Positions 23,590 to 39,476 of a stretch of DNA of 64,000 nt are shown piece after piece. The notes under the pieces were generated by a model. It had not been told where the DNA came from and searched no databases. It worked only from the letters and a program-made list of their open reading frames with translations. A program made the translations under genes and the position numbers. Within the stretch, counting starts at the first letter, position 1. Each line of letters begins with the position of its first letter. The DNA is from a phage, in the NCBI GenBank assembly GCA_011939005.1, contig GCA_011939005.1_4858.1. One strand, 5' to 3'.

Positions 23590-26500
23590 TTAGTTGATTT
23601 TAGCCGGCAAGGCTGGGACGTCTTCACCATCTAAGATGCGTCCGATATTCTCCCCACCACGATACCCGACAGCGTTGGTGGTTCCGATGCGCATGATAGA
23701 ACCTACGATACGTGCGTCGACGGAATCACGACCAAAGATAATGTCGAGTTCCTGCCCGTCTTCCGTTTTGTTGGTTCCATACATCACTTCCTGAACCGTC
23801 GTTTTCAGCTGGTTAGCAATAACCATCTTATCCGCTGCTGCCATCTCTACCCGGTGTGTGATGTAGAATCGGACACACAGGCTATTGTACGCTAACGGCA
23901 CCCCCTCAACACGAAAATCACCGTTGACTCGACCGTCCTTCGGCTCGTCACGTTTGAGAGCCAGCGCAGTCTTCCGACGTATACGGTCGTATTTACGAAC
24001 CATCTCCGCCAAAGACGGGGTCATATCTTCCACCTCGCCGTGGTAAACCACTTCGATTTTGTCGATAAACCCACGAACACCAGAGCGTGGTGCAAAGGAG
24101 CTTAACTCACGCAGCGTTTCCGCTGCTTCTTTACTGAACCCGCTCATATCGCCGGTCAGGTTGTCGGTGAAGGTGCATAGAATTGAATCCACGTCTACGT
24201 GGTCCCCTTCTTTTACCATCTCCAACAGGTTCTGGGTAAACGTCATTGTGACTTCTTTGAGTTTGGTAACATCGGCTTCAGCCTTAGCAGCGAACCGCTC
24301 ACTAATGGCGTTGGAGTCCTCAATTACTTCTTCCCCTTCAATCAAAGCGACAGTTGCCAGTATCCCGTTTTTAAAACTGACCTGCGTTGGATCGTAGATG
24401 TCTGGTTCAAAGTGTTGTTCGTTGTACGTGATAACGGCACCGGCAGGGAGTTTATCTCCGCGCTTCCATTTCGTTACCAGGGTGTGTGGGTAGTAAGTCC
24501 CTTCGTGTGGACCGAACCAACGGCCCAGTGGGAAAGCTTCTTCCTCTCCGTCGTCGTATTTGATTTTAACGTGGTCGTTAAGAACCTCCACAATCTTGCC
24601 TGGTTTATCGATTACGCGTGCGTGCTTCACAGAAGTACGGTGTGCCACGAACTTTTCTTGCTCGGTACGATACGGTGTGGTGGTTGCGCCAACACAACTG
24701 GTCGCAGAACCGAATTGAATCCCAACGAAGTTCTGACGCTTAGCATCGTCCATCAGGGTATCCGGCACCAAGCCATCAATAAATGACAGTGCCTCACCTG
24801 GCTTCAGTTTATCGAGGTCCTTTTTAAAGGTCGTGCCGTCCACGGTGTCGTAACGCGGATTGTTTGTTGCAAAGGCGGTGATACCTACGTCGCCGTTATC
24901 GACCGTGTTACCGGAGATAATCCCCAGGTCGCTCGGTTGGAATTCACGGGTACTGTATACCATGGTTTTGCGGTTACGACCACCTGTACCGCCCATGGTA
25001 ACGACATCTTTTTCTTTGATGTTCTGTACCGGGTTTGCGCCAGGAGCCAGCAGAACAGACGGGTCGGAGTTAATTGCACCCCACACCATGTCCTGCGTCA
25101 ACTCAAACTTACGATTTGAGTTAGGCGCGTTGTTGTAGTTACGCATCGCCCGCACCATCGCGGTGTAGATGTGATACGAAATACGTTGGTTCCCGATGAA
25201 CATCATTTCGTCACCGTTAATTTCCGGTAACGTGTGGTCCGTCTGCAGCAGTTCGTTAGAACGCTCCAGTAAGCCGATAAAGGTTTCCGGCTCGCCCATT
25301 TTCCTGAGGATACGCGCGTGCATGTCATCAACAAATGCGGTCCGCATCAGTTTCAGCTCTTTGATGTAGCGTGGTGTTAGCCCATCTGCATCGCGTAACA
25401 GGTTCAGATAAATGTCTTCCCGGTCAACTTCCGACTCGGTATACGTGGTAAAGTGTTTGATGTAACGGTCTAAGCCGTTGACAATCATCCTCTGTTGATC
25501 GTTCTCGCAGACAATTGCAATTTTCGCATCCTGGAGACGAATAATGGAGTCGAACTGACCTTTATCGATACGTTGTCCGACAGAGAGAACCTCGTAACTG
25601 ATACCAAAGTGTTTCAACATCCCGGTTAACCCGAGATAGTACGAAAACACAAAGCCCAGCGAGATTGATTTGCCCATCAGTGACAGTTCGGTCATTTCTC
25701 GTGGAGCCTTAGAGGTGTCCACGCCAAAGACCTCGGCGAGTGTACCCAGTGGTTCGGTCTTATCCTTATCCACTCGATAAAGCTGGGAGTTTTTATCCAT
25801 ACCGACGATGACATGACTCCGCGGTTTCTTCGCCACAGGTACCAGCTCGACACGGTCCGCGTCTGCCAGTTGCCCTTCGTTAAAGAATGCCGCTTTCTGT
25901 TTAATGTCAAAGTTCCATTGGTACCCAATTGCGTTGAACGCTGCTACACGACGTGCCACCTCGGTGTACTGACGCGGCAGTTTAGACAGCGGATCGAACA
26001 CATTCGCCAGTTTTGCATCAGTGATTTCGGTGTTCTTTGGATCGACCGCGCGAGTAATAATCGCATTAGTGAGCCAACGTCCGTAATCATTGACGACTTT
26101 ATCACTGCGACGGACAAAGTTCTTCCCGTAGGCAGTGGTTAACGCTACAGTATCGTGGGACACTTTACGGATAGGAAGATCAACGCGCTGACGACGCATT
26201 GTATATTCTACACCATTCGCAACCCAAGTACCGTCTTCGGTTAATGCAGGAATTGAGAAACGTACCGTGGTTGGTTCTCCGCCAATCGGCTGAATACGCA
26301 ACGTGTGGTGTTCGATATTCCCGGTAACGGAAATCTCTTTCTCGACAGTGTGATTGTGAATCGCTAAACCAAGACGTTGGGATGACGCTACTGCCCCCAG
26401 AATATCTTTCGGGAAGATTTCCTGGTTGTACTGACGAATGATTTGGTCGGTGGTATTTTCCGCCCAGGCTTCATCCGTAACTAAGCGTTCAATCTTCTTA

Positions 26501-27795
26501 GGCTCGGCTTTAACTTCGAGTTTCTTAGGATCGATGGTCAGACCTTCGCCGTACGTCTCTTTAGGATTGTACGGGTTGGGTAAGTTTACGAAACGTTTAG
26601 AAGATTCGTTCAGGAACTGATACGCTTTGGCGGTGACGCGGCCCGCTTCTGCCAGGCGCTCAACTTCCTGTTTAATCACAGCATCGTGTGGGATGGTGCG
26701 TTCTACGACGATGGTGGTTGGTTTGACATCTTCTTTCGGCGCTTCGATGACCAGATCTTCTTTCTCATCGAACTCATGATCGTTCAATATATCGTCAACG
26801 TTGTCGCTTTGTGTTGCTTCATCGTCGACGATATCGAGGGTTTCTTCCGGTTTACTGGCAACGGCTTCAACAACATCGTCGTCCTCTCCCAGATGTACGC
26901 GTTCGTCCCCTTCCGGTGTAACGAACTCGTCATCTTCGTAGTCGGTAGACGGCGGTGTGGTCATCACAGTAGTCAGTGTACGGTAGAACATTCTGCCCAT
27001 CTGCACGTCAGTCAAACGACCGCCGGCAGACTTACGCATTCTTTCAATTACACCCATGTTCATGGATGTAAAACCACCGTTGTGCGTGAAGATAAAGTTC
27101 ACACGTGACAGCTGGTTCATGTCCATACCGTCAAACAGGGTTGCTTGCTGATCGCCGTAAGCCCAACCGAACAGTTCCAGTAACCACAGCAGGTTAAAGT
27201 CCTTAAAGCGCTCCAGTTTGGTTTTAACACGATCGTTATACGTCATTTTAAAACGATCGAAAGAAGGCAGTACGTTACCCAGTTCGATGATGTAGTAGTT
27301 CTGACGCATGTACTCACGTGAGTCAGTTTTCATCTGGTTAGTTATCAGCAGCTGAATGTTGTGCAGACGTTCGTACCAGGACATCAGAGTATCAGGGTAG
27401 AAATAATGCGGCAGCATCGGGGTGTAGTTTTCGATGAGCAGCACTTTCGGATCTGAACGCACCACACCATCTTCAATCATGCGACGAATACGACGGTTGT
27501 TACGATGGTACTGGAAGATTTGACGTTCTTGGCCAACAACAGGTTTCTTACGCGGATGGCCAATAATGCCGTCTTCAGGTAGCTGGAAGTGATGGCGAAT
27601 CATCGCCGGTTTTTCCAGCTGGCCAAAACACGGTGTAGTTAACGGCGGCGCTAAAACCACCTGGTCTAAATCGATGGTGTGGTAGATAGAACCACGTGGG
27701 AGCTGGAGCTTCTCCAGCGGGATAATACGCGGACGACCGAACTCATCGGTCTTGCGCACGGTAAAGCGCTGGTTAAACTGTTTCAGAAAAATCAT
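23590..27795 (-). CDS. Multisubunit RNA polymerase beta-like subunit (N-terminal portion through flap/NFEDS-like region), 1401 aa
   Basis: By-eye similarity to E. coli RpoB recalled from memory: N-terminus TVRKTDEFGRPRIIPLEKLQL vs RKDFGKRPQVLDVPYLL; GGTGGRNRK vs GPGGLTRER; WKRGDKLPAGAVI vs VERGDVLADG; EDSNAISERF vs EDSILVSERV. C-terminal RpoB motifs absent. Confidence 0.65.
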   Translation of the reverse strand: MIFLKQFNQRFTVRKTDEFGRPRIIPLEKLQLPRGSIYHTIDLDQVVLAPPLTTPCFGQLEKPAMIRHHFQLPEDGIIGHPRKKPVVGQERQIFQYHRNNRRIRRMIEDGVVRSDPKVLLIENYTPMLPHYFYPDTLMSWYERLHNIQLLITNQMKTDSREYMRQNYYIIELGNVLPSFDRFKMTYNDRVKTKLERFKDFNLLWLLELFGWAYGDQQATLFDGMDMNQLSRVNFIFTHNGGFTSMNMGVIERMRKSAGGRLTDVQMGRMFYRTLTTVMTTPPSTDYEDDEFVTPEGDERVHLGEDDDVVEAVASKPEETLDIVDDEATQSDNVDDILNDHEFDEKEDLVIEAPKEDVKPTTIVVERTIPHDAVIKQEVERLAEAGRVTAKAYQFLNESSKRFVNLPNPYNPKETYGEGLTIDPKKLEVKAEPKKIERLVTDEAWAENTTDQIIRQYNQEIFPKDILGAVASSQRLGLAIHNHTVEKEISVTGNIEHHTLRIQPIGGEPTTVRFSIPALTEDGTWVANGVEYTMRRQRVDLPIRKVSHDTVALTTAYGKNFVRRSDKVVNDYGRWLTNAIITRAVDPKNTEITDAKLANVFDPLSKLPRQYTEVARRVAAFNAIGYQWNFDIKQKAAFFNEGQLADADRVELVPVAKKPRSHVIVGMDKNSQLYRVDKDKTEPLGTLAEVFGVDTSKAPREMTELSLMGKSISLGFVFSYYLGLTGMLKHFGISYEVLSVGQRIDKGQFDSIIRLQDAKIAIVCENDQQRMIVNGLDRYIKHFTTYTESEVDREDIYLNLLRDADGLTPRYIKELKLMRTAFVDDMHARILRKMGEPETFIGLLERSNELLQTDHTLPEINGDEMMFIGNQRISYHIYTAMVRAMRNYNNAPNSNRKFELTQDMVWGAINSDPSVLLAPGANPVQNIKEKDVVTMGGTGGRNRKTMVYSTREFQPSDLGIISGNTVDNGDVGITAFATNNPRYDTVDGTTFKKDLDKLKPGEALSFIDGLVPDTLMDDAKRQNFVGIQFGSATSCVGATTTPYRTEQEKFVAHRTSVKHARVIDKPGKIVEVLNDHVKIKYDDGEEEAFPLGRWFGPHEGTYYPHTLVTKWKRGDKLPAGAVITYNEQHFEPDIYDPTQVSFKNGILATVALIEGEEVIEDSNAISERFAAKAEADVTKLKEVTMTFTQNLLEMVKEGDHVDVDSILCTFTDNLTGDMSGFSKEAAETLRELSSFAPRSGVRGFIDKIEVVYHGEVEDMTPSLAEMVRKYDRIRRKTALALKRDEPKDGRVNGDFRVEGVPLAYNSLCVRFYITHRVEMAAADKMVIANQLKTTVQEVMYGTNKTEDGQELDIIFGRDSVDARIVGSIMRIGTTNAVGYRGGENIGRILDGEDVPALPAKIN

Positions 27796-27813: not shown

Positions 27814-29427
27814 TCATTTCAACAGCGCAGCAGTCGTTCTTTTAATCACGTTGTTAACCGGATTGATTTTGAAACTGCCGTCTGTTGCAAACCAGTAGTT
27901 TTTCGAACTGACCCACTTCCGATTTTCCTCGAGCGCTTCGGTTGACATCGGGCAGTTTGCTGAGCCGGTGTCACCATCGTAGTCACCACCCAATCCACCT
28001 AATCGGGATGGATGTGGTGCCATGGATTCCACAAAGGTTTTCACGGTACGGTCAGGGAAACTAATTGCACCCTTCTCTTTTAACGTGACCCAATCGTCTT
28101 CCAGTTCATGCAAATAGAGGGAAGAAGTGGTGGTCTCCAATCTTATGGTCGAGGAGTAAGTCGAACCGCGTCCCGTAACCGGATAACGCGTGATGAACGA
28201 GAAGTAGTCATTCCAAATATCGTAACCTGACAAATAGAGGAGTTCTGCTAAGCTCAGTCCGCGGACAAGCTTACGGTCACGTCCTTCCGGCAGGTCTTCA
28301 ATATCGTAAAAGATTTTGAAGCTGCGTTTGTCTTGGTAGATTAATGCCACGTAATGGTCCGGATCAATCATCAGCGGTTTATGTCGAAGCTCGCGCGCTT
28401 CCATTCTGTTGATGAGTGTTTCGATGCCATCGTCGGTAGTGAAAAGGTCATACACCCGCCCGGAGACTTCCAGGAACTCACGCTTGAGTGTTTTGGTGTT
28501 AACGCCGTATAAGTTGCCGTCCCCTGCCCGGATGTTACTGAGGTAACGTTCACGGATGTGGTATTGCGCCACAGGCAGTAATGCCTTCAGGGTTTGGTAC
28601 AAACCGATACGGGTATCCGTTGGACGAATCGCATCTTCGCGACCCATGACCTTGGAACCGGTTGAGAATGAAGACAGCACGTTACGCGTACCGTTCATTA
28701 ATTTACGTGACGTCACTTTACGACGTGCAAAACCACCTTTACCGTCTTGGATGTTGAAGAAGTACATCCAGATGTCATTAAAGGTTTGTTGGAGCTTCCA
28801 GCGAACCGGGTCAGTCAGTTCCGTTCGCGTACTGCGGTCGGGGATTGCACGTGCCAGAGAAATCAGACGGCGGTAGAGTCCGCCAATCTCTTCTTCTTGG
28901 TCGCGGCCATCCTGACGAATGACCAAATCACGTAATCCTGCAGGCAGAACCAGCACATAGCGGCTGAGACTGACCGGACGGAACTTATTGAAGAAATCGA
29001 CTGTCTCGTCGCGACGCATCGACTCGTTGCGTCCCGGAGTCAGTTGTTCGTAGTAGCGTAGGAAGAAGTTGAAGCCGGTGTCTGCACCTTTATCACTGGG
29101 CAGAGCCGGCTCGAAATCTTTTTCTTTCTCATTCCAGATAGCGAATCGCTTCCCGGAACAGATTTCTTCGTACAGCTGTTTCAGCTGGAACAGTGCCAAA
29201 CAAACGGTCGGCGAAATGATATCCAGTTTGATATCAATGTACGAGAACGTTGAGTCTCGTGCCTCGCTCCCTGTGAGGCCAAATATTTCGGTTGAATACA
29301 GTCCTTCAGGGTGAAAGTTTTTCGTCAGTCCCTGAAAGGTGTCTGTTGTTGTAACTGGTTTTAAATGCGACACCAGGGACTTGTTGACGTTTAACAAGTA
29401 AAAGTCAACCCAGTTTAGCTTTCTCAC
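27814..29427 (-). CDS. Multisubunit RNA polymerase beta-prime-like subunit, N-terminal fragment (537 aa), GTG start
   Basis: RYVLVLPAGLRDLV vs RpoC ILTVLPVLPPDLRPLV; GGFARRKVTSRKLMNGTRNVLSSFSTGSKV vs [21 protein letters not shown]; catalytic-site variant GGDYDGD (nt 27969-27986) vs NADFDGD; ORF ends about 55 aa after it; SD aggag before GTG. Confidence 0.8.
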   Translation of the reverse strand: MRKLNWVDFYLLNVNKSLVSHLKPVTTTDTFQGLTKNFHPEGLYSTEIFGLTGSEARDSTFSYIDIKLDIISPTVCLALFQLKQLYEEICSGKRFAIWNEKEKDFEPALPSDKGADTGFNFFLRYYEQLTPGRNESMRRDETVDFFNKFRPVSLSRYVLVLPAGLRDLVIRQDGRDQEEEIGGLYRRLISLARAIPDRSTRTELTDPVRWKLQQTFNDIWMYFFNIQDGKGGFARRKVTSRKLMNGTRNVLSSFSTGSKVMGREDAIRPTDTRIGLYQTLKALLPVAQYHIRERYLSNIRAGDGNLYGVNTKTLKREFLEVSGRVYDLFTTDDGIETLINRMEARELRHKPLMIDPDHYVALIYQDKRSFKIFYDIEDLPEGRDRKLVRGLSLAELLYLSGYDIWNDYFSFITRYPVTGRGSTYSSTIRLETTTSSLYLHELEDDWVTLKEKGAISFPDRTVKTFVESMAPHPSRLGGLGGDYDGDTGSANCPMSTEALEENRKWVSSKNYWFATDGSFKINPVNNVIKRTTAALLK

Positions 29428-29456
29428 TTTTAAGCTCCTGAATTGGAAGAAACATT

Positions 29457-32400
29457 ATGGCAAAAAGAGGCAAAGACGGTTTCGATGATATCGATTTAGA
29501 TAGACTCGACGACTGGGATGATTTCGGTGAACCACCCCGTCCCAAAGACGAGAAAAAACGAAGCCCGATACTCAGTACCCTGAATGTTGCCAGGAAGTCG
29601 GCGTTGTCAACTATCTGGCCAGAAGGGAAACGCGACCAAGTTATCCTCAAGGGGATGCCTAAGCCGGCAGCTGATGCATACGAGGGTTATCAGTCAGCGG
29701 CAGCTGCAGCAAAGGACATTTACGCCCATACGAAAGGGGAGCTTGAGAAGACCGAGCGCACGCTGAAGATGCAAGCGCGCCAACTCGGTCCGACGATGAA
29801 GAAATACTTGCCGGATGCAGTTACTAAGCGCTTCGACAAGTGGTCAAAATCTGACCAGTTAGATTACCAGAACTACGATCCGAATCAGGCATTGATGGAT
29901 CGTGAACTGGGCGACGTATTCTCAGGTGTGCCAAAGGACGCCGACGAACAACGTCAGCTGCAGGACCGCATGGTAGAGGATAAGCTCCGCGACAGCATCA
30001 AAGAGATGCGCGCGGATGCAATGCACCAAACCATGATTGGAATGGCGAAGGACATTAACCTGTTAACCGGGTTAAGCCGTGGGGTATTCTTAAACATCGA
30101 GCGTAAGAAACTCGAATTGCAATACCGTACCCTGTTCGCCATTCAAGACATCGTGAAGATGAAGCAGTCGGAGTTCGATCGTAACACGCCTGCTTTAGAA
30201 GCCATCGTGAAGAACACGGCGCTGCCAGACTACGCGAAGGAAGATTTCTCAGAAGTCCGTTGGGCAAACGTTAAACGCCAGGCTGCGGAATGGATGAACC
30301 CATTGCGTTATGCTGACGGGTTTATGGACATGATTCGCGAAAATACCAAGAAGAAAATTTCTGGTATATTTGGCGAAGGTCGTGGTTTGTTAGAGTCTGT
30401 TCTCGGCATGGGTGTTGAAGACGATTTCGGCATGAGCGATAGCTCTTCGTTGACTGCCGAACGTCGCAAAACAAATGCTCGAGATAAAGCAACTGCATGG
30501 GGTAGCGGATTCCTTGCGAAGAAACTACTCGGCCCACAAATCGAGAAACTCCAGAAATGGACTCGTGAGGAGATGGAGAAAAATCCAGAGGTCATGAAAC
30601 GCCTGCAGAAGGGCGCGTTCACCTTTGGTAATCTTTCCTCTATCTCGAACTCAGCTATCGCAGGCGAAACGCAAGGACCGTTGGCGGATTTGTTCCGGGT
30701 ATTGAATGAACTCGGTATTGTCCAACCGTTAAACCGTGAGAAAGCCTTCCTTGACGAACGTAATGGCGAAACGTTAAGCCGTTCGGCGAAATTTGACCGT
30801 AAAGCATATCTTAGCCTGGTTGAAGTTATTCCTGCCTGGCTGGCAGAGATTAACAAATCTGTTCGTCGGGGTTATGGCGAACATGCCGACCTGGAATACG
30901 ACATCACTAGTCGTGGGTTCGTAGACCGTAAAGTGGTCGGTAACCGCGTACGCAAGGCGGTTGCAAACGATGAACAACGCCTGCGTCTCCAAAATTCCAT
31001 TAACAGCACTGTGGATTTTGTTGACCGCGGCAAAACGCTCTCGCAGAAGGATCGACAGCATCTCGCCGACTATATCGAGTCGCGAGCCTCGCAGGGCCGC
31101 GCATTCGACGTAGAAGCGATTCTGAAAGACCCGATGCATCTTCATCGGTATATGCCAGGAAACGCCGCAGAACGCATTAAGGAAGCGTTACAGGGGCATT
31201 CTGATAGCTTGGTCGGCGGTAGCAACGAATTAAGTAACGAGCTGGCCCGCAAAATCTCCACAGTGCAGTCATCTATCACCCAACGTCAGGCAATTATCGA
31301 CGAGGCGGTGAATATTTACGGTGAGCGAGCATTGCGCGATGCGGGTATCTTTAACTACGACGCGAAGAGTGACACTTTCGGCGTGGATAAAGACCTGTCC
31401 GATCCCTATACCTTGTTTAATGACTTGGCGATGGGCAAGACACGCAGCGGGCGTGCATTGACTCGTGACCAGGAGATTCAACGTAAGCTGCAAAATGGTT
31501 CGGCGTTAGGCGACTATCTGCGCCGAATGAACCAAGGGGCAAGTGGTGGTGCCGATGACACGTCGTTGCCGCCGGCTTTACGTGGCGGTGGTAAAGGCCG
31601 CGGAATGTCGCCTCGGCAGTTAGCCGCAGTTCTCTACGGTGAAACCTCGACTAACTTTGTTGAATTGTTGAGTCAACGTAACCGTGGCGAAGAAGCACCA
31701 CGGAATAACTTTGACGGTATCATCGAAGCGATTCGGGGTAATAACAACAGTGACACCCTCCAGAAAATTCTGGAACACGTCAGAAGTATGGACGAAGAAG
31801 GGGTTCTCCTGGCTTCGTTAGCAGGGGGTGCTGGTTCTGGTGACGAAGAGATGGGACCACCTCGTCCTGGTGGTGGTAGCGGTGGCGGTAAACGCCGCCG
31901 TATTATCATCGGTGAGGATGGGCTTATTCGTCGTTGGGGCGGTGTGTTGTTCGACACTGCAGCAGGAATCGGTGGCTTTGCAAAACGTGGTGTTAAAGGT
32001 GCCTGGAATAAACTGAATCAGTTCGGTGGCTGGGCGCGCGGTAAAATCGCGGGGATGGGCGGCGGAGAAGGTCCTGGTTTCTTAACCCGGATGCGTGGCC
32101 TTATCAGCGGTAGTGTCCGTGGGGGCTTTGAAGCGGTAAGCTCTTTCGGTAAAGGATTGCTGGGTATCCGCGACGTTTACGATGACCACGGTAATGTTGT
32201 ACTGCAAGGTGCACGTCTGGAAGCTGGAGAATACTATCAGGTCATTGATGGTAAAATGGTTCAGCTGAAAACGCTGGACGACATCAAACTGGGGAGTGAT
32301 ATTGTTGACTCCGCAGGTAATCTGGTATTAGCAGCCGCTGACTTAGCCGCTGCGGGTAAACTCCGCTACTATAAAGGCGGGAAAATCCAAGCACTGACCC

Positions 32401-35400
32401 AAGGTCTGGCCAGTAAGATTGGCTTAGGCTTTAATAAGGTGGCTAAGCTACCGAAACGGTTCCTGGATTTCCTGTCACCGAAAGCGGGCAGCATCGTTGG
32501 TAAGATTAAGGACTGGCTGAACGAGATTCCGGAAGGCGAAGAAAAGACACGTCTCCAGAAAGCGTTCAACCGCGTAACGAGCTTACCGGGTAAAGTGCTC
32601 GGTTTTGCGAAACGTGGTGTCGACCGTCTGAAAGACATGATTACCGACAACCCACTGACGCGTTGGTGGAAAGGCCGTAAAGATGGTGGGGGTGGTGGTT
32701 TCAGTCTCTTCTCATCAACCGGCAAGAAAACCAACCACATCCTTATCCGTATCTATAAACTGTTGAACCAACGTTTACCGGGCGATCCGGAAGACGAAAG
32801 TTGGACAGAAGAAATGGAGAAGGGTGTCGGTGGCGGTGGTAGTACGATCGGCCGTGCAGTTCGCGGGGCGTATAATCGTGCGAAATCGTCGTTGTCTGAA
32901 CGTTTTGGTGGACGTTGGTCAAGAACAAAAGCGTTCTTTGGTCGTGGACGTGACCGCCTGCGTGGTTGGTTCAGTGGTTTCCGAGGCCGGGCTGGGGATA
33001 TGCTCGATGGATATCGTGGAGCACGACACGACATTGCTACACGTTACGAAGTTGAACGTCGGTTGGCTGGACGCGATGACGATGTTGCTGAGTTTTATCG
33101 CAGCCATTTGAACGCGAAAGGTGGTCTTTCTGGCCGTAAAGTCTACGGTGACGCGAAGGACGACCTTGAGACCGCGCGCGATGCAGCAGGTCGGGTTATC
33201 AACAAAGGGAAGAATGCTGCCAAGTCTGCAGGTGCAAGGTTATTCGAACGCTTGGACCGAATGATCGGCTTGCAAGAGATGTCATGGTTTAACACCATGC
33301 GCGAATCAGTATCCCGTGCAGGTGGTGACGATGGCATTATTCGTACCATGTTTGCGAAGTTCGGTAAACGTAACAAGCCACCTGAAAGTGATGAAAAACG
33401 CGACTACCTTAACTTCTTCAAACGTTGGCGTGAGAAACGTAAGGAGAAGAAAGAGAAAGCGCAGGGCTCCAAAGGGAAATCTGGCGGTCTGTGGGATATG
33501 GTGAAAGGCTTACCTATCATCGGTCCCATCGTCAGTATCTTGGGAACTGTGGGTAATATACTCGGTTCTATCACGAAATGGGGTGTGTTAAAACCAGTAG
33601 GTCTTTTAGGTAAGGCTGCGTGGAATGTCGGTAAGTTCGCAGTAACCCGTTTGGCGGCACCCGCGGTGTCCGCTGTGGCAACTGCGGCATCTGCCGTCGT
33701 GACAGCAGTGGGCTGGCCGGCAATTCTTATCGGTGGTGCGATCGCCGCGGCTGGTTACGCCGCGTACAGGATTGCAACGACTACCTATACCCAGTACCTG
33801 GATAAGATGCGTTTAGCTCAGTACGGTTTCCGTGATTACGATAAGTGGTCGTCGGACGACGGGGCGAAAGCGCGTTACTTAGAAGACGCATTGCGTGAGT
33901 ATGTGTCTTACGCGGAAGATGGCCAAGCCAGTCTCCGTGGGCTAAGTGGAAAAGACGTTCAGAAGTTAGCTGAAGGGTTCGGTATTAACGTTGAGGAAAA
34001 AGGCGAGATGTTGGCCTTCCAAGCGTTTATGCTTCAGCGCTTTATTCCGATTTATCTCCGCTGGATTACGGCACTGAAGTCAATGCCGAACAGTATCCAG
34101 TTGGCTGACGTCGGCGATGCGAAGAAAGTATCGAAAGAGGACATGCTGACTCTCTTCAACAAAATGAAGATGACTAAGGATGCAAAAGCGTTCTCTTCGT
34201 TAACAGACCCACGCAAAGTCAACCAAGGTTTCTTCTCGAAAGCTTGGGACGTTGTAACCTTTACACCGAAGGAGTTCTTGAGCGGTGAAGAGGTTATGGA
34301 AGTGCAGAATGAAGTCGAGCGTGCAATCAAGTCCAGAATGGACGATAAGAAAGCACGTAAGTACGGAATGGCACCGGCCGTGGAGGGGATTAAGTCCGCG
34401 GGCGTTGATGAAGCTATCAACAAACTTGGACAGTTGGATAACGAACGTAATAAAAATCTGGCGAAGGTAGAAGGTTGGGAAGACGGAACAGAGCAGGTTC
34501 AGATTCAGGTAGACTGGAATGCGGTGCTCGACCAGAAAGACATGAATGCGATGGAATCGGTGCGTTGGAAGACTTACGGCTTTACCACCATCGATAACGC
34601 CACCCGCACTTTGATCACGGTATTCGAGAAGAACGTCATCAAAGACATTGACGTGAAAACCGCAAGCTACAAAGGAGATTGGAAGAAAGCCATCGCCACG
34701 ATGGTTCCAGACGCTATCGGTACACCGAAAGAAGATCGTTTGAAACGGTGGTTCTTTGACCGTTTCTTACCGGTATTCATGACGTATTTGGTTGGGGTGA
34801 AGCGTTACCTGCCAACAGCCGATCCGCTGAACTTGAAACTGACCGGCGGCTACCTGTACGAAATCAGTCTGATGATGTCAACTGCCTACAGCCTGAAAGG
34901 TGGTATAAGACAGTCGGTGTGGGAAGTGAATATCAACCCATTAGGGGGTGAGGCTAACACGAACCCATCATCCATCAAAGCCGAACTGGAAACGCTGAAG
35001 CTGCTGTCAAAAGAAGCTGACCTTGCCGTGCGTAACATGATTAAAGCCATTAGAAATAATGGCAAGCGTGCGCGCTGGAAGGATCGTAACAAGAACCGCA
35101 GTTCTCTGGAAGTTACCGGTGAGGATGAAGAAGACTCGAACATCAGTTCGGGAGATTCTTTGTCATCTGACGGTGCTCGCGCCTCAGGCTACATTCCATC
35201 GGGTACGAGTGGTGGTGTGCCGGGTAACTTGGGTCAAGTCGTCGATGCGGTTGGTGGTGTGCGGAACTACGCTGCAATGACCACTGGTTCGTCTTCGATT
35301 AACCTGAGTGATGTGAAAGACGGTGATTATAAGTCACTGGCTGAAAAATACCCGATAGAAATGTTGGGTAGAAAGGGTGCGTTGAACGTTCCGAATATCA

Positions 35401-36578
35401 AAGCATTGATTACCGATGCGGCGAACATGATGGGCGTGCCACCTGCAGTGGCGTTAGCAATGGCTAAGGCGGAGTCCGGATTTAACTACACCGCTAAAAA
35501 CCCGTATGCTTCGGCGTCTGGGCTGTTCCAGTTCATTGACGGCACGTGGAACGGGATGATGAAGGGGTATTCGCGGAAGTTTGGTATTCCGCGTGTTAAC
35601 CAAATGGACCCGTGGGCGAATGCTATATTGGGTGTACAGTTCATTCGTGACAACATCCAACAAGCACAGCGTGACCTGGGTGGTAAAGCACCACCTCCAG
35701 CCGTGGCTTATCTGTACCACTTCTTGGGTGCAGGCGGCGGTAAGAAGTTCTTGGAAGCATGGAAGCGTAATCCGAATATGGCGGCATCGAGTGCTCCTGG
35801 GATTACATCTGCAATACTGAGAGGGAATGCCAACGTCTTCTACAGCAACGGTCGTATACGTAGCGTAGACGGGGTTATTCAGGAACTGAACCGCCGTATG
35901 GGCGCAATTTCCGCCAACGAAGTCGCTGCCGATCCGAGTAAGACGAAGGATATGGTTGCAGGCTTGTCGCCTAATTCACCAACCAACCCGGCAGCAGCAA
36001 TGGGTGCACCGGCCGCTAATGATCCGAGTCTGTCGCCAGCAGATAACCTGCCAGCAGATAATGCTAATCGTCGTGATGACGCATTGACGCAGAAAGGGGC
36101 CATGGCGGCACAAGATGCAATGGCTACCGCCGCAGGTAATGTAGGACCAGCAGCACCTACACCAACCACAGGCGGTACCGGAACATCCGATGCCTCAACA
36201 ACGGCCGAAACCGTAGCGTCGCAAGCTGCAGCAGAAGGATTGTCTGCGACGGATGTTGCTAAAGTGAAAGCAGGCGCGGAAGCGCAGGTTAACGCAGCAG
36301 CTCGTCCAGTTGCCGCTCCAACTTCTGATGCTACAGCATCGACGCCAACGCTGAATGGTGACCCGATGGATGTTCAGCAGCTCAAGGTACTGATTCAGTC
36401 TCGCGATTACTTGAAAGAGATTCGTGATATTTTGAAATCAAATCCGAGAGCAGCAAACGACACGCGTGGTGGTAGTATCCAGCAAGCGGCAAATGTGGCT
36501 CCTCCGGGCTCAGCTGCACGTAGGCAGGAAATAACCCAACCGACACCGTCGTTAAACGTAAGTCGGAAAGCAAGCTAA
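29457..36578 (+). CDS. Giant virion protein (2373 aa) with C-terminal lytic transglycosylase (SLT) domain; tape-measure/ejection-protein candidate
   Basis: Uninterrupted 7.1-kb ORF; SLT motifs AMAKAESGFN (catalytic ES), SASGLFQF, AYLYHFLGAGG at about nt 35430-35770; Gly-rich repeats; long hydrophobic segment (PIIGPIVSILGTVGNILGSI ... AILIGGAIAAAGYAAY). Confidence 0.85.
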   Translation: MAKRGKDGFDDIDLDRLDDWDDFGEPPRPKDEKKRSPILSTLNVARKSALSTIWPEGKRDQVILKGMPKPAADAYEGYQSAAAAAKDIYAHTKGELEKTERTLKMQARQLGPTMKKYLPDAVTKRFDKWSKSDQLDYQNYDPNQALMDRELGDVFSGVPKDADEQRQLQDRMVEDKLRDSIKEMRADAMHQTMIGMAKDINLLTGLSRGVFLNIERKKLELQYRTLFAIQDIVKMKQSEFDRNTPALEAIVKNTALPDYAKEDFSEVRWANVKRQAAEWMNPLRYADGFMDMIRENTKKKISGIFGEGRGLLESVLGMGVEDDFGMSDSSSLTAERRKTNARDKATAWGSGFLAKKLLGPQIEKLQKWTREEMEKNPEVMKRLQKGAFTFGNLSSISNSAIAGETQGPLADLFRVLNELGIVQPLNREKAFLDERNGETLSRSAKFDRKAYLSLVEVIPAWLAEINKSVRRGYGEHADLEYDITSRGFVDRKVVGNRVRKAVANDEQRLRLQNSINSTVDFVDRGKTLSQKDRQHLADYIESRASQGRAFDVEAILKDPMHLHRYMPGNAAERIKEALQGHSDSLVGGSNELSNELARKISTVQSSITQRQAIIDEAVNIYGERALRDAGIFNYDAKSDTFGVDKDLSDPYTLFNDLAMGKTRSGRALTRDQEIQRKLQNGSALGDYLRRMNQGASGGADDTSLPPALRGGGKGRGMSPRQLAAVLYGETSTNFVELLSQRNRGEEAPRNNFDGIIEAIRGNNNSDTLQKILEHVRSMDEEGVLLASLAGGAGSGDEEMGPPRPGGGSGGGKRRRIIIGEDGLIRRWGGVLFDTAAGIGGFAKRGVKGAWNKLNQFGGWARGKIAGMGGGEGPGFLTRMRGLISGSVRGGFEAVSSFGKGLLGIRDVYDDHGNVVLQGARLEAGEYYQVIDGKMVQLKTLDDIKLGSDIVDSAGNLVLAAADLAAAGKLRYYKGGKIQALTQGLASKIGLGFNKVAKLPKRFLDFLSPKAGSIVGKIKDWLNEIPEGEEKTRLQKAFNRVTSLPGKVLGFAKRGVDRLKDMITDNPLTRWWKGRKDGGGGGFSLFSSTGKKTNHILIRIYKLLNQRLPGDPEDESWTEEMEKGVGGGGSTIGRAVRGAYNRAKSSLSERFGGRWSRTKAFFGRGRDRLRGWFSGFRGRAGDMLDGYRGARHDIATRYEVERRLAGRDDDVAEFYRSHLNAKGGLSGRKVYGDAKDDLETARDAAGRVINKGKNAAKSAGARLFERLDRMIGLQEMSWFNTMRESVSRAGGDDGIIRTMFAKFGKRNKPPESDEKRDYLNFFKRWREKRKEKKEKAQGSKGKSGGLWDMVKGLPIIGPIVSILGTVGNILGSITKWGVLKPVGLLGKAAWNVGKFAVTRLAAPAVSAVATAASAVVTAVGWPAILIGGAIAAAGYAAYRIATTTYTQYLDKMRLAQYGFRDYDKWSSDDGAKARYLEDALREYVSYAEDGQASLRGLSGKDVQKLAEGFGINVEEKGEMLAFQAFMLQRFIPIYLRWITALKSMPNSIQLADVGDAKKVSKEDMLTLFNKMKMTKDAKAFSSLTDPRKVNQGFFSKAWDVVTFTPKEFLSGEEVMEVQNEVERAIKSRMDDKKARKYGMAPAVEGIKSAGVDEAINKLGQLDNERNKNLAKVEGWEDGTEQVQIQVDWNAVLDQKDMNAMESVRWKTYGFTTIDNATRTLITVFEKNVIKDIDVKTASYKGDWKKAIATMVPDAIGTPKEDRLKRWFFDRFLPVFMTYLVGVKRYLPTADPLNLKLTGGYLYEISLMMSTAYSLKGGIRQSVWEVNINPLGGEANTNPSSIKAELETLKLLSKEADLAVRNMIKAIRNNGKRARWKDRNKNRSSLEVTGEDEEDSNISSGDSLSSDGARASGYIPSGTSGGVPGNLGQVVDAVGGVRNYAAMTTGSSSINLSDVKDGDYKSLAEKYPIEMLGRKGALNVPNIKALITDAANMMGVPPAVALAMAKAESGFNYTAKNPYASASGLFQFIDGTWNGMMKGYSRKFGIPRVNQMDPWANAILGVQFIRDNIQQAQRDLGGKAPPPAVAYLYHFLGAGGGKKFLEAWKRNPNMAASSAPGITSAILRGNANVFYSNGRIRSVDGVIQELNRRMGAISANEVAADPSKTKDMVAGLSPNSPTNPAAAMGAPAANDPSLSPADNLPADNANRRDDALTQKGAMAAQDAMATAAGNVGPAAPTPTTGGTGTSDASTTAETVASQAAAEGLSATDVAKVKAGAEAQVNAAARPVAAPTSDATASTPTLNGDPMDVQQLKVLIQSRDYLKEIRDILKSNPRAANDTRGGSIQQAANVAPPGSAARRQEITQPTPSLNVSRKAS

Positions 36579-36626
36579 TCGTAGGGGGTGGCAACACCCC
36601 CTAATCATCTTACAGAGAGGTTTTAC

Positions 36627-38849
36627 GTGGAAGCAAGACAACTAAAAGATTCAGGATGGGTAACCGGCCTGTTTGGCGGTACAACCGCACAGCGCGATGA
36701 GCGCTTCCTGGGTTTGCGTCGTTACTCTAACGCGATGCTCTCGTTTGAAGATACCACGATGGGTGGTTCGCAAGCGTTAAATGCGCCGCCGCAGTTTACG
36801 ATGTTTGCTGATCCGAGTTCAACAGGTGCTTTTGCACAACCTGATGCAGGTCGTGGCTCGTACTCAAAGTACGTTAAAGGTCAAGACCAACGTGGTTCCT
36901 ATCGTTTAGGGACTTTCTATTACGAAGCTATTAACCAAAACAGTTTTTATCTTCATTGTCGTTTCGGTAAACCTCGATATATCGGGGTAGCTGCATTCTT
37001 CGCGAATATGTACGATTCCAACCTAGCGTATCTGGCACGCACAGGTGACTACCCAGGTATGTTACGTGCGATGGGGACGTATGTTGCCGCCGCAGCAATA
37101 TGGGCCGCAGTAGGTACGGTTGCCTTTGCGGTTATTCTAATTACACCACGTATGTTGAAGATGGTGCTGAACAAGCAGACTTCTCGCTACTACTACGTGA
37201 AACCGACAATGCACTTGTATCTGCGCGCTGTGCAGAATATGGTCAACACCCAGTTAGTTTATCGCCGATTGGTACCAACGGGTGTGTTAGGGACTTTCCA
37301 GCTTGCTAATGCTGTAGATGGGTCTGAGAAAGGCGGTACTGCTAATAAGTACAACGGCGACCGTAAAGAGTGGTACTCCATGCTGCCAGAAATCTGGACA
37401 GCTGATGGTGAGTTCGATATCTATCGAATGATTAACCGCTACCAAACATTAGCCAACTACCAGGCGAAAACCATCGATAAAATTCGTAAAGAGTCGAGTA
37501 ACGAAGAGGACATGGCTCGTCGTTTGCGAAACTTCTATCTGGAAGCGACGTACTCAACAACCCATTTGGAGAAAGCTGCGCAGTACGAGGTTTCTTTACG
37601 TAACCTTGAACATGTAGCCAAAGCTGGTAAAGGGTACGATGCTGGTTTTGAAAACGTCGACAACAAAGAAGACGAACTGGTAGCAGGGATGAACGGCAGC
37701 ATTCAGGATGCTCAGTCACAAGGGGGTAAGGCTGAAAACTTCGAAAACGAAGGTGATGCGCAACGTAAAGAGCTTGCCGAGCGTATGGCACAGGTTGAAA
37801 AGAACCAGGCACAGGTTGCTAAAAGTCAGACCGAAGCAAACTCAATGGATGAGAATAATCTCGACATTGGGAAGATTGAAAACTGGATGGACCAAGGCCA
37901 GAAAGAATCTGTCGGTAGCGTCTTCAAAGACTATATCGATATTTTAGAAGGCGCTATGGATGGGTTAACTTCGAACATCGCTTCGGAGATACGCAATGGT
38001 TCGCAGTGGATTACTTGGCGTGTTGATGGACGTGATACCGTAGGGCGTTCGTTCTCCAACACCACCAAAGAACCTGAAATCTCTGGCACGGTTAACTCCG
38101 CCACACAGAAAGCACGTTCTTTGGAAGTAAACCTCTCTGGTGGTAAGACTGGTTTCGACGCAGTCGATGGTCTCATTACTGGGTTGAAGTCCGCCTTTAC
38201 AGGCGCACTCGATTTCTTACATTTATCAGGGATTATGTCACTGTACAACTCGTCGGTGATTGACTTCCCGGAAGTGTGGGACTCCTCAGACACCTCAGGT
38301 GACGATATCTCGCTAAGTATTCCCCTTCGCTGTTGGTCGGGTAATGACTTAGATGTGTTTCAGGATCTGATTGTCCCGTTGTCGTTCTGGTTAGCGGCAG
38401 TTTGTCCGTTAGCAACCGGTAAACAATCGTTTACACACCCGTTCTATCTGGAGTGCTATTCTCGCGGTCGTTATTCCATGCGTAATGCCATGGTAACTAA
38501 CTTGAGTCTCCAGTTTGGTACAGGTGGGTTAGGGTGGCGTGCTGACGGTCTGCCGTTGTCGTGTGATATACAGGTAACTATTCGTGACCTGTCACGCGTT
38601 ATGTACATGCCGATTGTAACCGATATTGGTGTGTTTGATGATGATAACAAGTTCAGTGAATTTATGTCTGTGTTGGGTGCTGCCACGCTTTACGAGCGTA
38701 CCAACGGTATCGCGCAGGCTAAAATCAACGCGTCTATCTGGGCGCAGAACTGGGCAAGTGCCTGGTCACAGGGCAGCATCGTCAACGCCGCATTAGATAT
38801 CATACCGGCACGACAAATCGCGAACATTTTCCTACCACAAGCGCGATAG
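36627..38849 (+). CDS. Hypothetical protein (about 740 aa), probable structural; GTG start at 36627 preferred over 36588
   Basis: SD agagagg 6 nt before GTG 36627; the listed start at 36588 is a GTG inside a hairpin right after the upstream stop. Confidence 0.6.
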   Translation: MEARQLKDSGWVTGLFGGTTAQRDERFLGLRRYSNAMLSFEDTTMGGSQALNAPPQFTMFADPSSTGAFAQPDAGRGSYSKYVKGQDQRGSYRLGTFYYEAINQNSFYLHCRFGKPRYIGVAAFFANMYDSNLAYLARTGDYPGMLRAMGTYVAAAAIWAAVGTVAFAVILITPRMLKMVLNKQTSRYYYVKPTMHLYLRAVQNMVNTQLVYRRLVPTGVLGTFQLANAVDGSEKGGTANKYNGDRKEWYSMLPEIWTADGEFDIYRMINRYQTLANYQAKTIDKIRKESSNEEDMARRLRNFYLEATYSTTHLEKAAQYEVSLRNLEHVAKAGKGYDAGFENVDNKEDELVAGMNGSIQDAQSQGGKAENFENEGDAQRKELAERMAQVEKNQAQVAKSQTEANSMDENNLDIGKIENWMDQGQKESVGSVFKDYIDILEGAMDGLTSNIASEIRNGSQWITWRVDGRDTVGRSFSNTTKEPEISGTVNSATQKARSLEVNLSGGKTGFDAVDGLITGLKSAFTGALDFLHLSGIMSLYNSSVIDFPEVWDSSDTSGDDISLSIPLRCWSGNDLDVFQDLIVPLSFWLAAVCPLATGKQSFTHPFYLECYSRGRYSMRNAMVTNLSLQFGTGGLGWRADGLPLSCDIQVTIRDLSRVMYMPIVTDIGVFDDDNKFSEFMSVLGAATLYERTNGIAQAKINASIWAQNWASAWSQGSIVNAALDIIPARQIANIFLPQAR

Positions 38850-38871: not shown

Positions 38872-39411
38872 ATGAGTTTATTTGGAAAGACCGCAAAAGA
38901 GTTGGTTTACGATCTTATCGTGTCCCAGAATCCCGGACTGGCTGGTAAGGGCGTGACCATCGATAAATTGTCGTTCGGTAACCCGTCGCACATCACCGCA
39001 GCCGATCCTGACCCAGAACAGTACACCAGACTGAACACCAGTCTCGATGTTTCTGGTATCGTTGAGAAAGGTACGTTTGGTAAGATGGGTCTTACTTACC
39101 GTCGACTGGACGTAGCCCACCTGTTTGAAAACGTGGTGCTGTCTGTAGATGGTAGTAGCGCATCCACTGCTGCTGATCTTGTCCCGTTATTGCAGGCTAA
39201 GTATAACTGGATGATTGACACATCGGAGATCTATGCAAACGAGTCAATGACATCTTCCACGAAACACAATTTGCGTTTCAATGGCAAGTCTTTGGCTTGG
39301 ACTGGCACGGTTGAAGTTTATCTAACCGAAGTTCCAAGTGATGGCGTCGATATCAGTAAACTGATCACTGTTACTGAGCTGAATGGCTTGGTTTATGAAG
39401 TCTCGATATGA
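38872..39411 (+). CDS. Hypothetical protein, 179 aa
   Basis: SD gaggt; followed by bidirectional terminator. Confidence 0.6.
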   Translation: MSLFGKTAKELVYDLIVSQNPGLAGKGVTIDKLSFGNPSHITAADPDPEQYTRLNTSLDVSGIVEKGTFGKMGLTYRRLDVAHLFENVVLSVDGSSASTAADLVPLLQAKYNWMIDTSEIYANESMTSSTKHNLRFNGKSLAWTGTVEVYLTEVPSDGVDISKLITVTELNGLVYEVSI

Positions 39412-39420
39412 CGCAGGCGT

Positions 39421-39476
39421 AACAAAAAATAAGTATTACGAGTACCCCGTCGGGGTACTCGTTTGCTTTATTTTTT
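39421..39476. terminator. Bidirectional intrinsic terminator (hairpin 39439-39461)
   Basis: 10-bp stem cgagtacccc/ggggtactcg; A-run before and T-run after; lies between convergent genes ending 39411 and 39475. Confidence 0.75.

What the first reader, a model, noticed from the sequence alone, without database searches (positions are those of the whole stretch)
29457..36578. 2373-aa protein with C-terminal lytic transglycosylase domain, Gly-rich repeats and a long hydrophobic segment
A single 7.1-kb ORF combines a canonical SLT catalytic region (AMAKAESGFN, GLFQF, AYLYHFLGAGG, about nt 35430-35770), several poly-Gly/Gly-Ser tracts and a roughly 90-aa hydrophobic Ala/Gly/Val-rich stretch. This fits a tape-measure or ejection protein that digests peptidoglycan during genome delivery. 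Its large N-terminal region has no recognisable domain.
Basis: partly seen in the sequence, partly recalled or inferred. Interest (0 to 1): 0.5.

Follow-up and report, generated by a model that had tools for sequence, protein, structure and literature searches.

The report
Giant phage tail tape measure protein
This 2373-residue gene is the already described tail "tape measure" protein (gp239) of SPN3US-like giant Salmonella phages, a mostly helical tail protein with a cell-wall-cutting enzyme near its end, so the finding is real but already known.

Summary
The ORF (29457..36578, +, 2373 aa) and its described features are real. It has a Pfam SLT domain with the catalytic Glu-Ser motif, three short Gly tracts, and a ~94-aa hydrophobic block (aa 1347-1440). 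The N-terminal region matches no known domain. "Gly-rich repeats" is inaccurate: they are tracts, not repeats.

The window comes from an SPN3US-like Salmonella jumbo phage. The ORF is gp239 (about 99% aa identity). [quoted passage not shown] Mass spectrometry found it in virions, and found it missing or more than 10-fold depleted in tailless particles.

It is a full-length, collinear, syntenic homologue of phiKZ gp181, whose C-terminal part has measured muralytic activity. The next gene, gp238, matches the phiKZ gp182 / Goslar gp203 ring at the base of the tail tube.

New here:
- The protein is predicted 61% helical.
- Family length is tightly held (median 2404 aa) down to about 20% identity.
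- The hydrophobic block sits at about 0.61 of the length.
- The wall-degrading module varies between relatives.
- The whole protein is about twice too long for the canonical ruler rule. Only the part before the hydrophobic block fits the tail length.

Verdict: already known.

The parts
29457..36578 (+). Whole gene: homologue of SPN3US gp239 / phiKZ gp181, tail tape measure protein with a muralytic domain (2373 aa)
   Evidence: ORF. 97% nt and about 99% aa identity to SPN3US-like phages. PHROG 3201 match of 2453 bits; best of two matched stretches covers aa 1033-2373, profile 1094-2408 of 2408. Family HMM against phiKZ gp181 gives 715 bits, collinear.
29457..31406 (+). aa 1-650: conserved N-terminal module of long helices, with an acidic N-terminus and the invariant KNTALPDYAKE motif at aa 252-261. 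Proposed head-proximal part of the ruler.
   Evidence: Conservation. AF2 shows long helices. No PDB fold match. In 1135 cluster representatives this module lies at residues ~1-650, and the 150 listed are mostly 2000-2900 aa.
31407..33494 (+). aa 651-1346: variable, basic, Gly-rich, mostly helical region. Gly tracts at nt 31869-31889, 32685-32699 and 32829-32843. Proposed to carry most of the family's length variation.
   Evidence: Composition and tracts. Low conservation and occupancy. Low-confidence helices. The indel against SPN3US lies in the first Gly tract.
32169..32336 (+). aa 905-960: small beta module (DVYDDHGNVVL...). Present once here and apparently twice in many homologues and in phiKZ gp181.
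   Evidence: AF2 strands with pLDDT 76-84. Repeated consensus. Overlapping HMM pieces in phiKZ gp181.
33495..33776 (+). aa 1347-1440: hydrophobic Gly/Ala/Val-rich block with two to three membrane-span-like segments separated by a basic amphipathic stretch. Proposed inner-membrane insertion or channel element.
   Evidence: Hydropathy. A comparable block at about 0.61 of the length scores >=1.5 in 84 of 91 homologues. AF2 pLDDT is below 50 there.
33777..35006 (+). aa 1441-1850: conserved, confidently predicted helical domain of unknown function (near-invariant RLAQYG at 1452-1457 and RFIP at 1528-1531).
   Evidence: Conservation. AF2 pLDDT mostly 79-94. No specific PDB relative beyond the SLT domain.
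35007..35228 (+). aa 1851-1924: disordered Ser/Gly/Asp-rich linker
   Evidence: AF2 pLDDT below 50. Poorly conserved.
35229..35966 (+). aa 1925-2170: lytic transglycosylase (SLT, goose-lysozyme-like) domain. Catalytic Glu2006 at nt 35472-35474.
35967..36575 (+). aa 2171-2373: Ala/Thr/Pro-rich low-complexity stretch followed by a conserved C-terminal helix (~aa 2304-2328). Proposed anchor to the hub or tube-initiator complex (inference).
   Evidence: Composition. Helix and pLDDT. Conserved QL..Q...L..I consensus and near-invariant R2370.
36588..38849 (+). Next gene (SPN3US gp238 homologue): hexameric ring between the tail-tube initiator and the baseplate hub
   Evidence: PDB 9xqs_K PHIKZ182 at E 3e-62 and Goslar gp203 'tail tube initiator complex protein' at E 5e-57. 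BLASTP to phiKZ gp182 over aa 37-718. Essential tail protein in SPN3US. Spacer ring in the phiKZ atlas.
38872..39411 (+). Third gene of the + strand block (SPN3US gp237 homologue): virion structural protein of unknown role
   Evidence: PHROG 2935 'virion structural protein'. Detected in SPN3US virions. No PDB match and no phiKZ gp183-185 match.
39438..39462 (.). Bidirectional terminator-like hairpin that closes the three-gene + strand block
   Evidence: Stem of 11 pairs, 7 of them G-C, with T-rich tails on both strands.

Best explanation
The gene encodes the tail tape measure protein of an SPN3US-like jumbo myovirus (gp239, the orthologue of phiKZ gp181). It also serves as the phage's envelope-penetration device.

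Proposed mechanism:
1. A few copies (three or six, as in other phages) assemble on the baseplate hub and tube-initiator complex, which includes the product of the adjacent gene gp238.
2. The long helical N-terminal ~1340 residues extend up the tube lumen and set where tube polymerisation stops.
3. The C-terminal ~1000 residues are carried as cargo at the baseplate end. They comprise the hydrophobic block, a conserved helical domain, the SLT lytic transglycosylase and a terminal helix.
4. After sheath contraction and loss of the spike, the protein leaves the tube ahead of the DNA.
5. The SLT domain cuts glycan strands locally.
6. The hydrophobic segments insert into the inner membrane to help form the DNA conduit.

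Shown: the sequence features, the SLT fold, family membership, synteny, and tail association by published mass spectrometry on the near-identical SPN3US protein. Shown for the phiKZ homologue only: muralytic activity and essentiality.

Inferred: lumen location, copy number, orientation, the ruler function, ejection, and membrane insertion.
For: - Identity and virion location. The ORF is about 99% identical to SPN3US gp239. That protein is found in virions (107 unique peptides, 200 spectra) and is absent or more than 10-fold reduced in tailless particles.
- Homology. It is a full-length collinear homologue of phiKZ gp181 with the same gene order: virion RNA polymerase genes divergent, then gp181, then gp182.
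- Essentiality. phiKZ orf181 has no transposon insertions across 6.7 kb and is called the likely tape measure.
- Neighbour. The next gene encodes the ring between tube initiator and hub in solved phiKZ and Goslar baseplates.
- The spike role is taken. The phiKZ spike, tip and hub are other proteins (gp164, gp163.1, gp101). gp181 is in none of the deposited chains. This would fit a symmetry-mismatched lumen protein, which is my inference.
- Shape. AF2 predicts 61% helix and 3.5% strand, with many 30-50-residue helices.
- Length constraint. Family length is median 2404 aa, with 5-95% at 2234-2563, at identities down to about 20%. Total length tracks the part before the hydrophobic block (r 0.78) more than the part after it (r 0.30).
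- Ruler fit. Residues 1-1340 as straight helix would span 201 nm. The phiKZ tail is about 166-200 nm, and SPN3US-like SPFM tails are 160-200 nm.
- Enzyme. The SLT fold and catalytic Glu-Ser are conserved. Relatives carry GH19 instead of SLT, or add an M23 peptidase or a VanY carboxypeptidase. This indicates selection for wall degradation in general.
- Precedent. Lambda gpH also has a Gly-rich C-terminal region, is present in six copies, and is linked to a trans-envelope channel.
Against: - No experiment in any phiKZ-like phage shows that this protein sets tail length.
- As one helix the whole protein would be 356 nm, about twice the tail. The canonical 0.15 nm per residue rule therefore fails for the full length.
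- There is no upstream tail-assembly chaperone pair with a programmed frameshift. The gene is not next to the sheath and tube genes.
- Neither the phiKZ atlas nor the Goslar preprint mentions a tape measure protein or gp181, and no chain of the family is deposited.
- The hydrophobic block is weak in phiKZ gp181 itself (maximum 1.22), so membrane insertion may not apply to the whole family.
- AF2 confidence is low over much of aa 650-1440.
Confidence: 0.75

Rival explanations
1. It is an internal tail or baseplate penetration protein that is carried in the lumen and ejected, with wall-cutting and membrane-inserting functions. It is not the length determinant; tail length is set by something else.
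For: The whole protein is about twice too long for the ruler rule. No chaperone or frameshift genes lie upstream. The ruler function has never been tested. The C-terminal 1000 residues look like cargo.
Against: No other gene is called a tape measure in the SPN3US and phiKZ papers read. Length is tightly conserved despite about 20% identity, and the variation sits in the pre-hydrophobic part. Extreme helicity and adjacency to the tube-initiator ring gene fit a ruler.
Confidence: 0.12
2. It is the needle-like cell-puncturing device on the baseplate, like T4 gp5. This was the model proposed for phiKZ gp181 in 2008.
For: The review PMC5380687 lists gp181 as a needle-like cell-puncturing device and putative trimer with muralytic activity.
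Against: The phiKZ atlas assigns the spike to gp164, the tip to gp163.1 and the hub to gp101, and does not mention gp181. The Goslar authors report that they could assign all hub, spike and inner-baseplate density, naming no homologue of this protein among them. The protein is 61% helical with no OB-fold or beta-helix.
Confidence: 0.06
3. It is a head-packaged ejection protein that forms a trans-envelope channel, like T7 gp16 with its SLT domain.
For: The SLT domain resembles that of T7-like internal virion protein D. SPN3US packages many ejection proteins in its head (abstracts).
Against: gp239 is not detected, or is more than 10-fold depleted, in tailless DNA-filled heads, while head proteins remain.
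Confidence: 0.04
4. It is a tail fibre, as most database records label it.
For: GenBank records and the PHROG 3201 label read 'tail fiber protein'.
Against: Strand content is only 3.5%. No fibre, receptor-binding or beta-helix domain is found. The protein has membrane-span-like segments and an enzyme domain. The SPN3US papers and the phiKZ transposon study propose fibre/baseplate roles for other proteins. The label appears to be carried over from older annotation.
Confidence: 0.02

Closest known systems
Salmonella phage SPN3US gp239 (YP_009153533; 'tail tape measure protein', 259.1 kDa)
   Same: Same gene: 21 amino-acid substitutions and one Gly indel in 2373 residues, with the same neighbours. 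It is a virion tail protein by mass spectrometry.
   Different: Nothing of substance. GenBank labels it 'tail fiber protein', while the literature calls it the tape measure.
Pseudomonas phage phiKZ gp181 (2237 aa, 'tail-associated endolysin')
   Same: Full-length collinear homologue (family HMM 715 bits; BLASTP 24% identity over aa 1383-2148). The synteny with gp182 and the virion RNA polymerase genes is the same. Muralytic activity was measured on its C-terminal part. It is essential.
   Different: It is 136 aa shorter, has a much weaker hydrophobic block (1.22 against 1.91), and appears to have two copies of the small beta module.
Phage T5 Pb2 (tape measure with fusogenic and muralytic activities)
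   Same: Works alike in concept: one long tail-lumen protein that combines a ruler, hydrophobic membrane-active segments and a C-terminal wall-degrading domain. This rests on established knowledge (Boulanger 2008, listed in PMC5380687).
   Different: No sequence homology was detected. T5 is a siphovirus, and Pb2 is 124 kDa with a differently classed muralytic domain.
Lambda gpH and mycobacteriophage TM4 tape measure proteins
   Same: Lambda gpH has a Gly-rich C-terminal region, is present in six copies, and is linked to a trans-envelope channel. The TM4 tape measure embeds a peptidoglycan-hydrolase motif (Piuri & Hatfull 2006, cited).
   Different: They are 853 aa and about 1200 aa and follow the 0.15 nm per residue rule. 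This protein is about twice too long for its tail.
phiKZ endolysin gp144 (PDB 3bkh)
   Different: gp144 is a 260-aa endolysin. In the atlas it also sits at the virion neck, so only the catalytic domain is shared.

Membership tests
Family-1 lytic transglycosylase (SLT domain, PF01464 / GH23) | Profile match above the curated threshold | tested here: met
   PF01464 at 39.1 bits against a 21.3-bit cut-off, aa 1984-2072.
Family-1 lytic transglycosylase (SLT domain, PF01464 / GH23) | Catalytic Glu in an E-S motif, plus the G-L-x-Q and aromatic (A-Y) motifs | tested here: met
   E2006-S2007, G2022-L-F-Q2025 and A2084-Y2085 are present. They are invariant or at least 90% conserved in 37 family members, and the alignment includes a GH19-bearing member (P0041).
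Family-1 lytic transglycosylase (SLT domain, PF01464 / GH23) | Goose-lysozyme-like alpha fold | tested here: met
Family-1 lytic transglycosylase (SLT domain, PF01464 / GH23) | Non-hydrolytic cleavage that gives 1,6-anhydro-MurNAc | not testable with these tools
   Only generic muralytic activity is reported for phiKZ gp181, via PMC5380687.
Tail tape measure protein | Component of the tail, located in the tube lumen | not testable with these tools
   Tail association is shown by published mass spectrometry of wild-type against tailless particles. Lumen location has not been shown, and no PDB chain of the family exists.
Tail tape measure protein | Protein length proportional to tail length (~0.15 nm per residue) | tested here: not met
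   2373 aa would give 356 nm against tails of 160-200 nm. Only aa 1-1340 (201 nm) fits. No length-mutant data exist.
Tail tape measure protein | Predominantly long alpha-helical, non-globular | tested here: met
   61% helix overall and 70% in aa 1-700, with helices up to about 49 residues. There is no fold match for the N-terminal half.
Tail tape measure protein | Gene next to baseplate hub or tube-initiator genes | tested here: met
   The downstream gene matches PHIKZ182 and Goslar gp203.
Tail tape measure protein | Preceded by tail-assembly chaperone genes with a programmed frameshift | tested here: not met
   The upstream neighbour is a divergently transcribed virion RNA polymerase subunit gene, only 29 bp away.
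phiKZ gp181 / PHROG 3201 family | Full-length collinear homology and conserved synteny | tested here: met
   PHROG 3201 at 2453 bits. The family HMM against gp181 gives four collinear pieces covering model positions 10-2348. Gene order is shown.
Tail fibre (database label) | Beta-rich trimeric fibre or receptor-binding domain | tested here: not met
   Strand content is 3.5% and there is no fibre domain.
T4 gp5-like cell-puncturing spike | OB-fold plus beta-helix forming the central spike | tested here: not met
   No such fold is predicted. The phiKZ spike is gp164 with gp163.1.

The most novel reading that the evidence does not exclude
Only the first ~1340 residues act as the ruler. The conserved C-terminal ~1000 residues form a dedicated envelope-remodelling cargo of nucleus-forming jumbo phages: the hydrophobic block, a helical domain of unknown fold, and an exchangeable wall hydrolase. 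After ejection this cargo would insert into the inner membrane and help create the membrane-bound early-infection (EPI) vesicle that receives the genome. No paper found links the tape measure to that vesicle. The protein is unresolved in both recent virion atlases.
Probability: 0.12. Interest if true: 0.6.

Novelty: already known. Interest (0 to 1): 0.15.

Why it matters
In itself it matters little. The gene is an already named and proteomically located structural protein of a well-studied model jumbo phage, and the muralytic activity of its phiKZ homologue was measured in 2008.

There are two useful by-products:
- The widespread GenBank and PHROG label 'tail fiber protein' is almost certainly wrong for this family.
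- The family is the largest unresolved component of phiKZ-like virions. Its conserved hydrophobic block and unknown helical domain are reasonable candidates for the unknown step by which these phages cross the inner membrane.

Tried and rejected
- Repeats. Tandem Repeats Finder on the gene and protein self-BLAST found nothing, so 'Gly-rich repeats' is rejected in favour of short tracts.
- A MAFFT alignment of all 90 homologues timed out. A 37-sequence subset was used instead.
- Foldseek of the N-terminal half against PDB found no match better than E about 1.
- NCBIfam gave nothing above threshold.
- A profile search of PDB found no chain of this family outside the SLT part.
- The phiKZ atlas and the Goslar preprint do not mention the protein.
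- The supplement held for PMC10052503 had no gp239 entry.
- A literature search linking the tape measure to the EPI vesicle found nothing relevant.
- Rejected readings: tail fibre, baseplate needle and head ejection protein (see the rival explanations).
Full report
**Observation**

The ORF is exactly as described: 29457..36578 on the + strand, ATG start, 2373 aa. Calculated mass is 259,129 Da, pI 9.5, and there is no cysteine.

- The three quoted SLT motifs are at aa 2001-2010, 2022-2026 and 2084-2094 (nt 35457-35738).
- Three short Gly tracts are at aa 805-811, 1077-1081 and 1125-1129.
- A hydrophobic Gly/Ala/Val-rich block spans aa 1347-1440 and has two to three membrane-span-like segments.
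- Pfam finds only SLT (PF01464) at aa 1984-2072, 39.1 bits against a 21.3-bit cut-off.
- There are no tandem repeats in the DNA and no internal protein repeats. 'Gly-rich repeats' should read 'Gly tracts'.

**What it is**

The window comes from an SPN3US-like Salmonella jumbo myovirus (genus Seoulvirus).

- The gene is 97% identical in DNA, over its full length, to SPN3US and about 25 close relatives, and about 99% identical in protein.
- In the SPN3US record it is ACQ60_gp027. It lies between the divergently transcribed virion RNA polymerase subunit genes and two further + strand virion genes. Counting from the prohead protease gp245, this corresponds to gp239 of the original numbering.
- Against SPN3US gp239, 161 codons differ synonymously and 21 non-synonymously. 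There is one extra Gly in the first Gly tract. This shows strong purifying selection.

**What is already published**

- Three SPN3US papers call gp239 (259.1 kDa) the tail tape measure protein.
- Mass spectrometry detects it in purified virions with 107 unique peptides, 200 spectra and 37% coverage.
- It is missing from tailless particles of a gp64 amber mutant. It is more than 10-fold depleted in tailless particles of a tube-protein mutant (PMC5105663, PMC5694885, PMC10052503).
- For the phiKZ homologue gp181, a review cites Briers et al. 2008 for muralytic activity of 60,000 U/mg. It also cites their proposal that gp181 is a needle-like puncturing device.
- A 2025 transposon study finds phiKZ orf181 free of insertions over 6.7 kb and calls it the likely tape measure.
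- The 2026 phiKZ structural atlas assigns the spike, tip, hub, spacer ring and tube initiator to gp164, gp163.1, gp101, gp182 and gp88. It never mentions gp181.
- The Goslar preprint likewise mentions no tape measure protein.
- A family-profile search of all PDB sequences hits only SLT-type enzymes, so no member of this family has been modelled.

**Homology and context tested here**

- A profile of 37 family members matches phiKZ gp181 in four collinear pieces covering model positions 10-2348 (715 bits, E 1e-218). Direct BLASTP gives 24% identity over aa 1383-2148, plus the N-terminus.
- Gene order is the same in both phages.
- The next gene (36588..38849) matches PHIKZ182 (PDB 9xqs_K, E 3e-62) and Goslar gp203, a 'tail tube initiator complex protein' (BLASTP). 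It is an essential tail protein in SPN3US.
- A terminator-like hairpin at 39438-39462 closes the three-gene + strand block.

**Anatomy**

AF2 models of the two halves, each built with a 37-sequence alignment, gave mean pLDDT 60.5 and 68.3. Together they predict 61% helix and 3.5% strand.

| Residues | Feature | Basis |
|---|---|---|
| 1-650 | Conserved module of long helices, invariant KNTALPDYAKE | |
| 651-1346 | Variable, basic, Gly-rich, low-confidence helices; small beta module at 905-960 | |
| 1347-1440 | Hydrophobic block | |
| 1441-1850 | Conserved, confidently predicted helical domain with no identifiable relative | |
| 1851-1924 | Disordered linker | |
| 1925-2170 | SLT domain | |
| 2171-2373 | Ala/Thr/Pro-rich stretch ending in a conserved helix | |

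- E2006, S2007 and Q2025 are near-invariant and G2022 and Y2085 invariant in the family.
- The N-terminal half has no structural relative in PDB.

**Family-wide patterns**

- A word-indexed search found 93 homologues. All but two are 2197-2799 aa, at 18-25% identity in the alignable N-terminal half.
- A full HMMER scan with aa 1-700 found 1135 cluster representatives at E <= 1e-3. The module lies at residues ~1-650, and the 150 listed are mostly 2000-2900 aa.
- Median length is 2404 aa, with the 5-95% range at 2234-2563.
- A hydrophobic block lies at about 0.61 of the length and scores >=1.5 in 84 of 91 proteins. It is weak in phiKZ gp181 (1.22).
- Total length correlates with the part before the block (r 0.78) more than with the part after it (r 0.30).
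- The wall-degrading module varies. One relative has GH19 in place of SLT. Others have SLT plus an M23 peptidase, VanY plus SLT, or SLT plus DUF5675.

**Mechanism**

The best-supported reading is a multifunctional tape measure.

- The canonical rule of about 0.15 nm per residue is established for lambda gpH, T4 gp29 and P2 gpT. This rests on general knowledge, not on a test here.
- The rule fails for the whole protein: 356 nm against a tail of 160-200 nm. For phiKZ the atlas gives a 2000 A tail, and 44 sheath rings at 37.73 A make 166 nm. For SPN3US-like SPFM phages, negative stain gives 160-200 nm.
- Residues 1-1340, the part before the hydrophobic block, would span 201 nm as straight helix.
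- I therefore infer a ruler of about 1100-1350 residues plus a C-terminal cargo of about 1000 residues.
- My arithmetic from the published 68 A lumen gives a lumen volume of about 7.3e6 cubic angstroms. Three to six copies of 259 kDa would fill about 13-26% of it, so the cargo can physically fit.
- By analogy with lambda, T5 and T4, the C-terminus should sit at the baseplate end, next to the gp238 ring, and leave first after contraction. The SLT domain would then cut peptidoglycan, and the hydrophobic segments would enter the inner membrane.
- Orientation, copy number, ejection and membrane insertion are all inferred.

**Rivals**

- A lumen or penetration protein that does not measure length remains possible (0.12).
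- The 2008 needle model conflicts with the solved baseplates.
- A head-packaged ejection protein conflicts with the tailless-particle proteomics.
- The 'tail fiber' database label has no structural support.

**Verdict**

The object is already known. Residual interest lies in the unresolved structure and in the conserved hydrophobic and helical cargo. These might bear on how nucleus-forming jumbo phages cross the inner membrane, which is a speculative reading with about 12% probability.

Noticed in passing
window 29457-36578 and homologues P0001-P0093: The 2373-aa protein has no cysteine at all. Family members have 0-6 Cys in about 2400 residues. This might suit a protein that must pass through the periplasm unfolded, which is speculation.
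   Followed up: partly
window 29427-29457: Only 29 bp separate the divergent start codons of the virion RNA polymerase beta' fragment gene (27814..29427, -) and the giant ORF. No sigma-70-like promoter is found there. Any promoters must lie inside coding sequence or be of the phage's own type.
   Followed up: no
window 32169-32336 (aa 905-960): A small beta module (DVYDDHGNVVL...GNLVL) occurs once here but seems duplicated in many homologues and in phiKZ gp181. The evidence is overlapping HMM pieces and the consensus. It could be a unit of length variation.
   Followed up: partly
window 31869-31889 (aa 805-811): The only indel against SPN3US gp239 is one extra Gly codon inside the GGGSGGG tract.
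   Followed up: yes
homologues P0041, P0083, P0084, P0085: The wall-degrading module varies between homologues: GH19 replaces SLT, or an M23 peptidase, VanY or DUF5675 is added. P0085 also has a Peptidase_S74 (intramolecular chaperone-like) match at aa 703-747.
   Followed up: partly
P0052 (Salmonella phage SPFM20, 2364 aa): A same-sized 'tail fiber' protein from another Salmonella jumbo-phage lineage scores 1046 bits by phmmer, but BLASTP aligns only 3% of the query. Its hydrophobic block is at aa 941-1022 rather than ~1350-1440. It may be a rearranged relative or a compositional match.
   Followed up: no
window 36588-38849 (gp238 homologue), aa 465-680: Besides PHIKZ182 and Goslar gp203, this region matches PDB chain 36za_rp, named 'Capsid decorator gp77', at E 6e-56. 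That is an odd name for a relative of a baseplate ring protein.
   Followed up: no
window 39438-39462: A perfect 11-bp-stem hairpin with T-rich runs on both sides lies between the convergent gp237 homologue and the downstream minus-strand genes. It is a likely bidirectional terminator.
   Followed up: no
window 27814-29427 and 23590-27795 (- strand): These are virion RNA polymerase subunit genes (gp240 and gp241 homologues). The former carries the GGDYDGDT variant of the catalytic NADFDGD motif. No tRNA genes occur in the whole window.
   Followed up: partly
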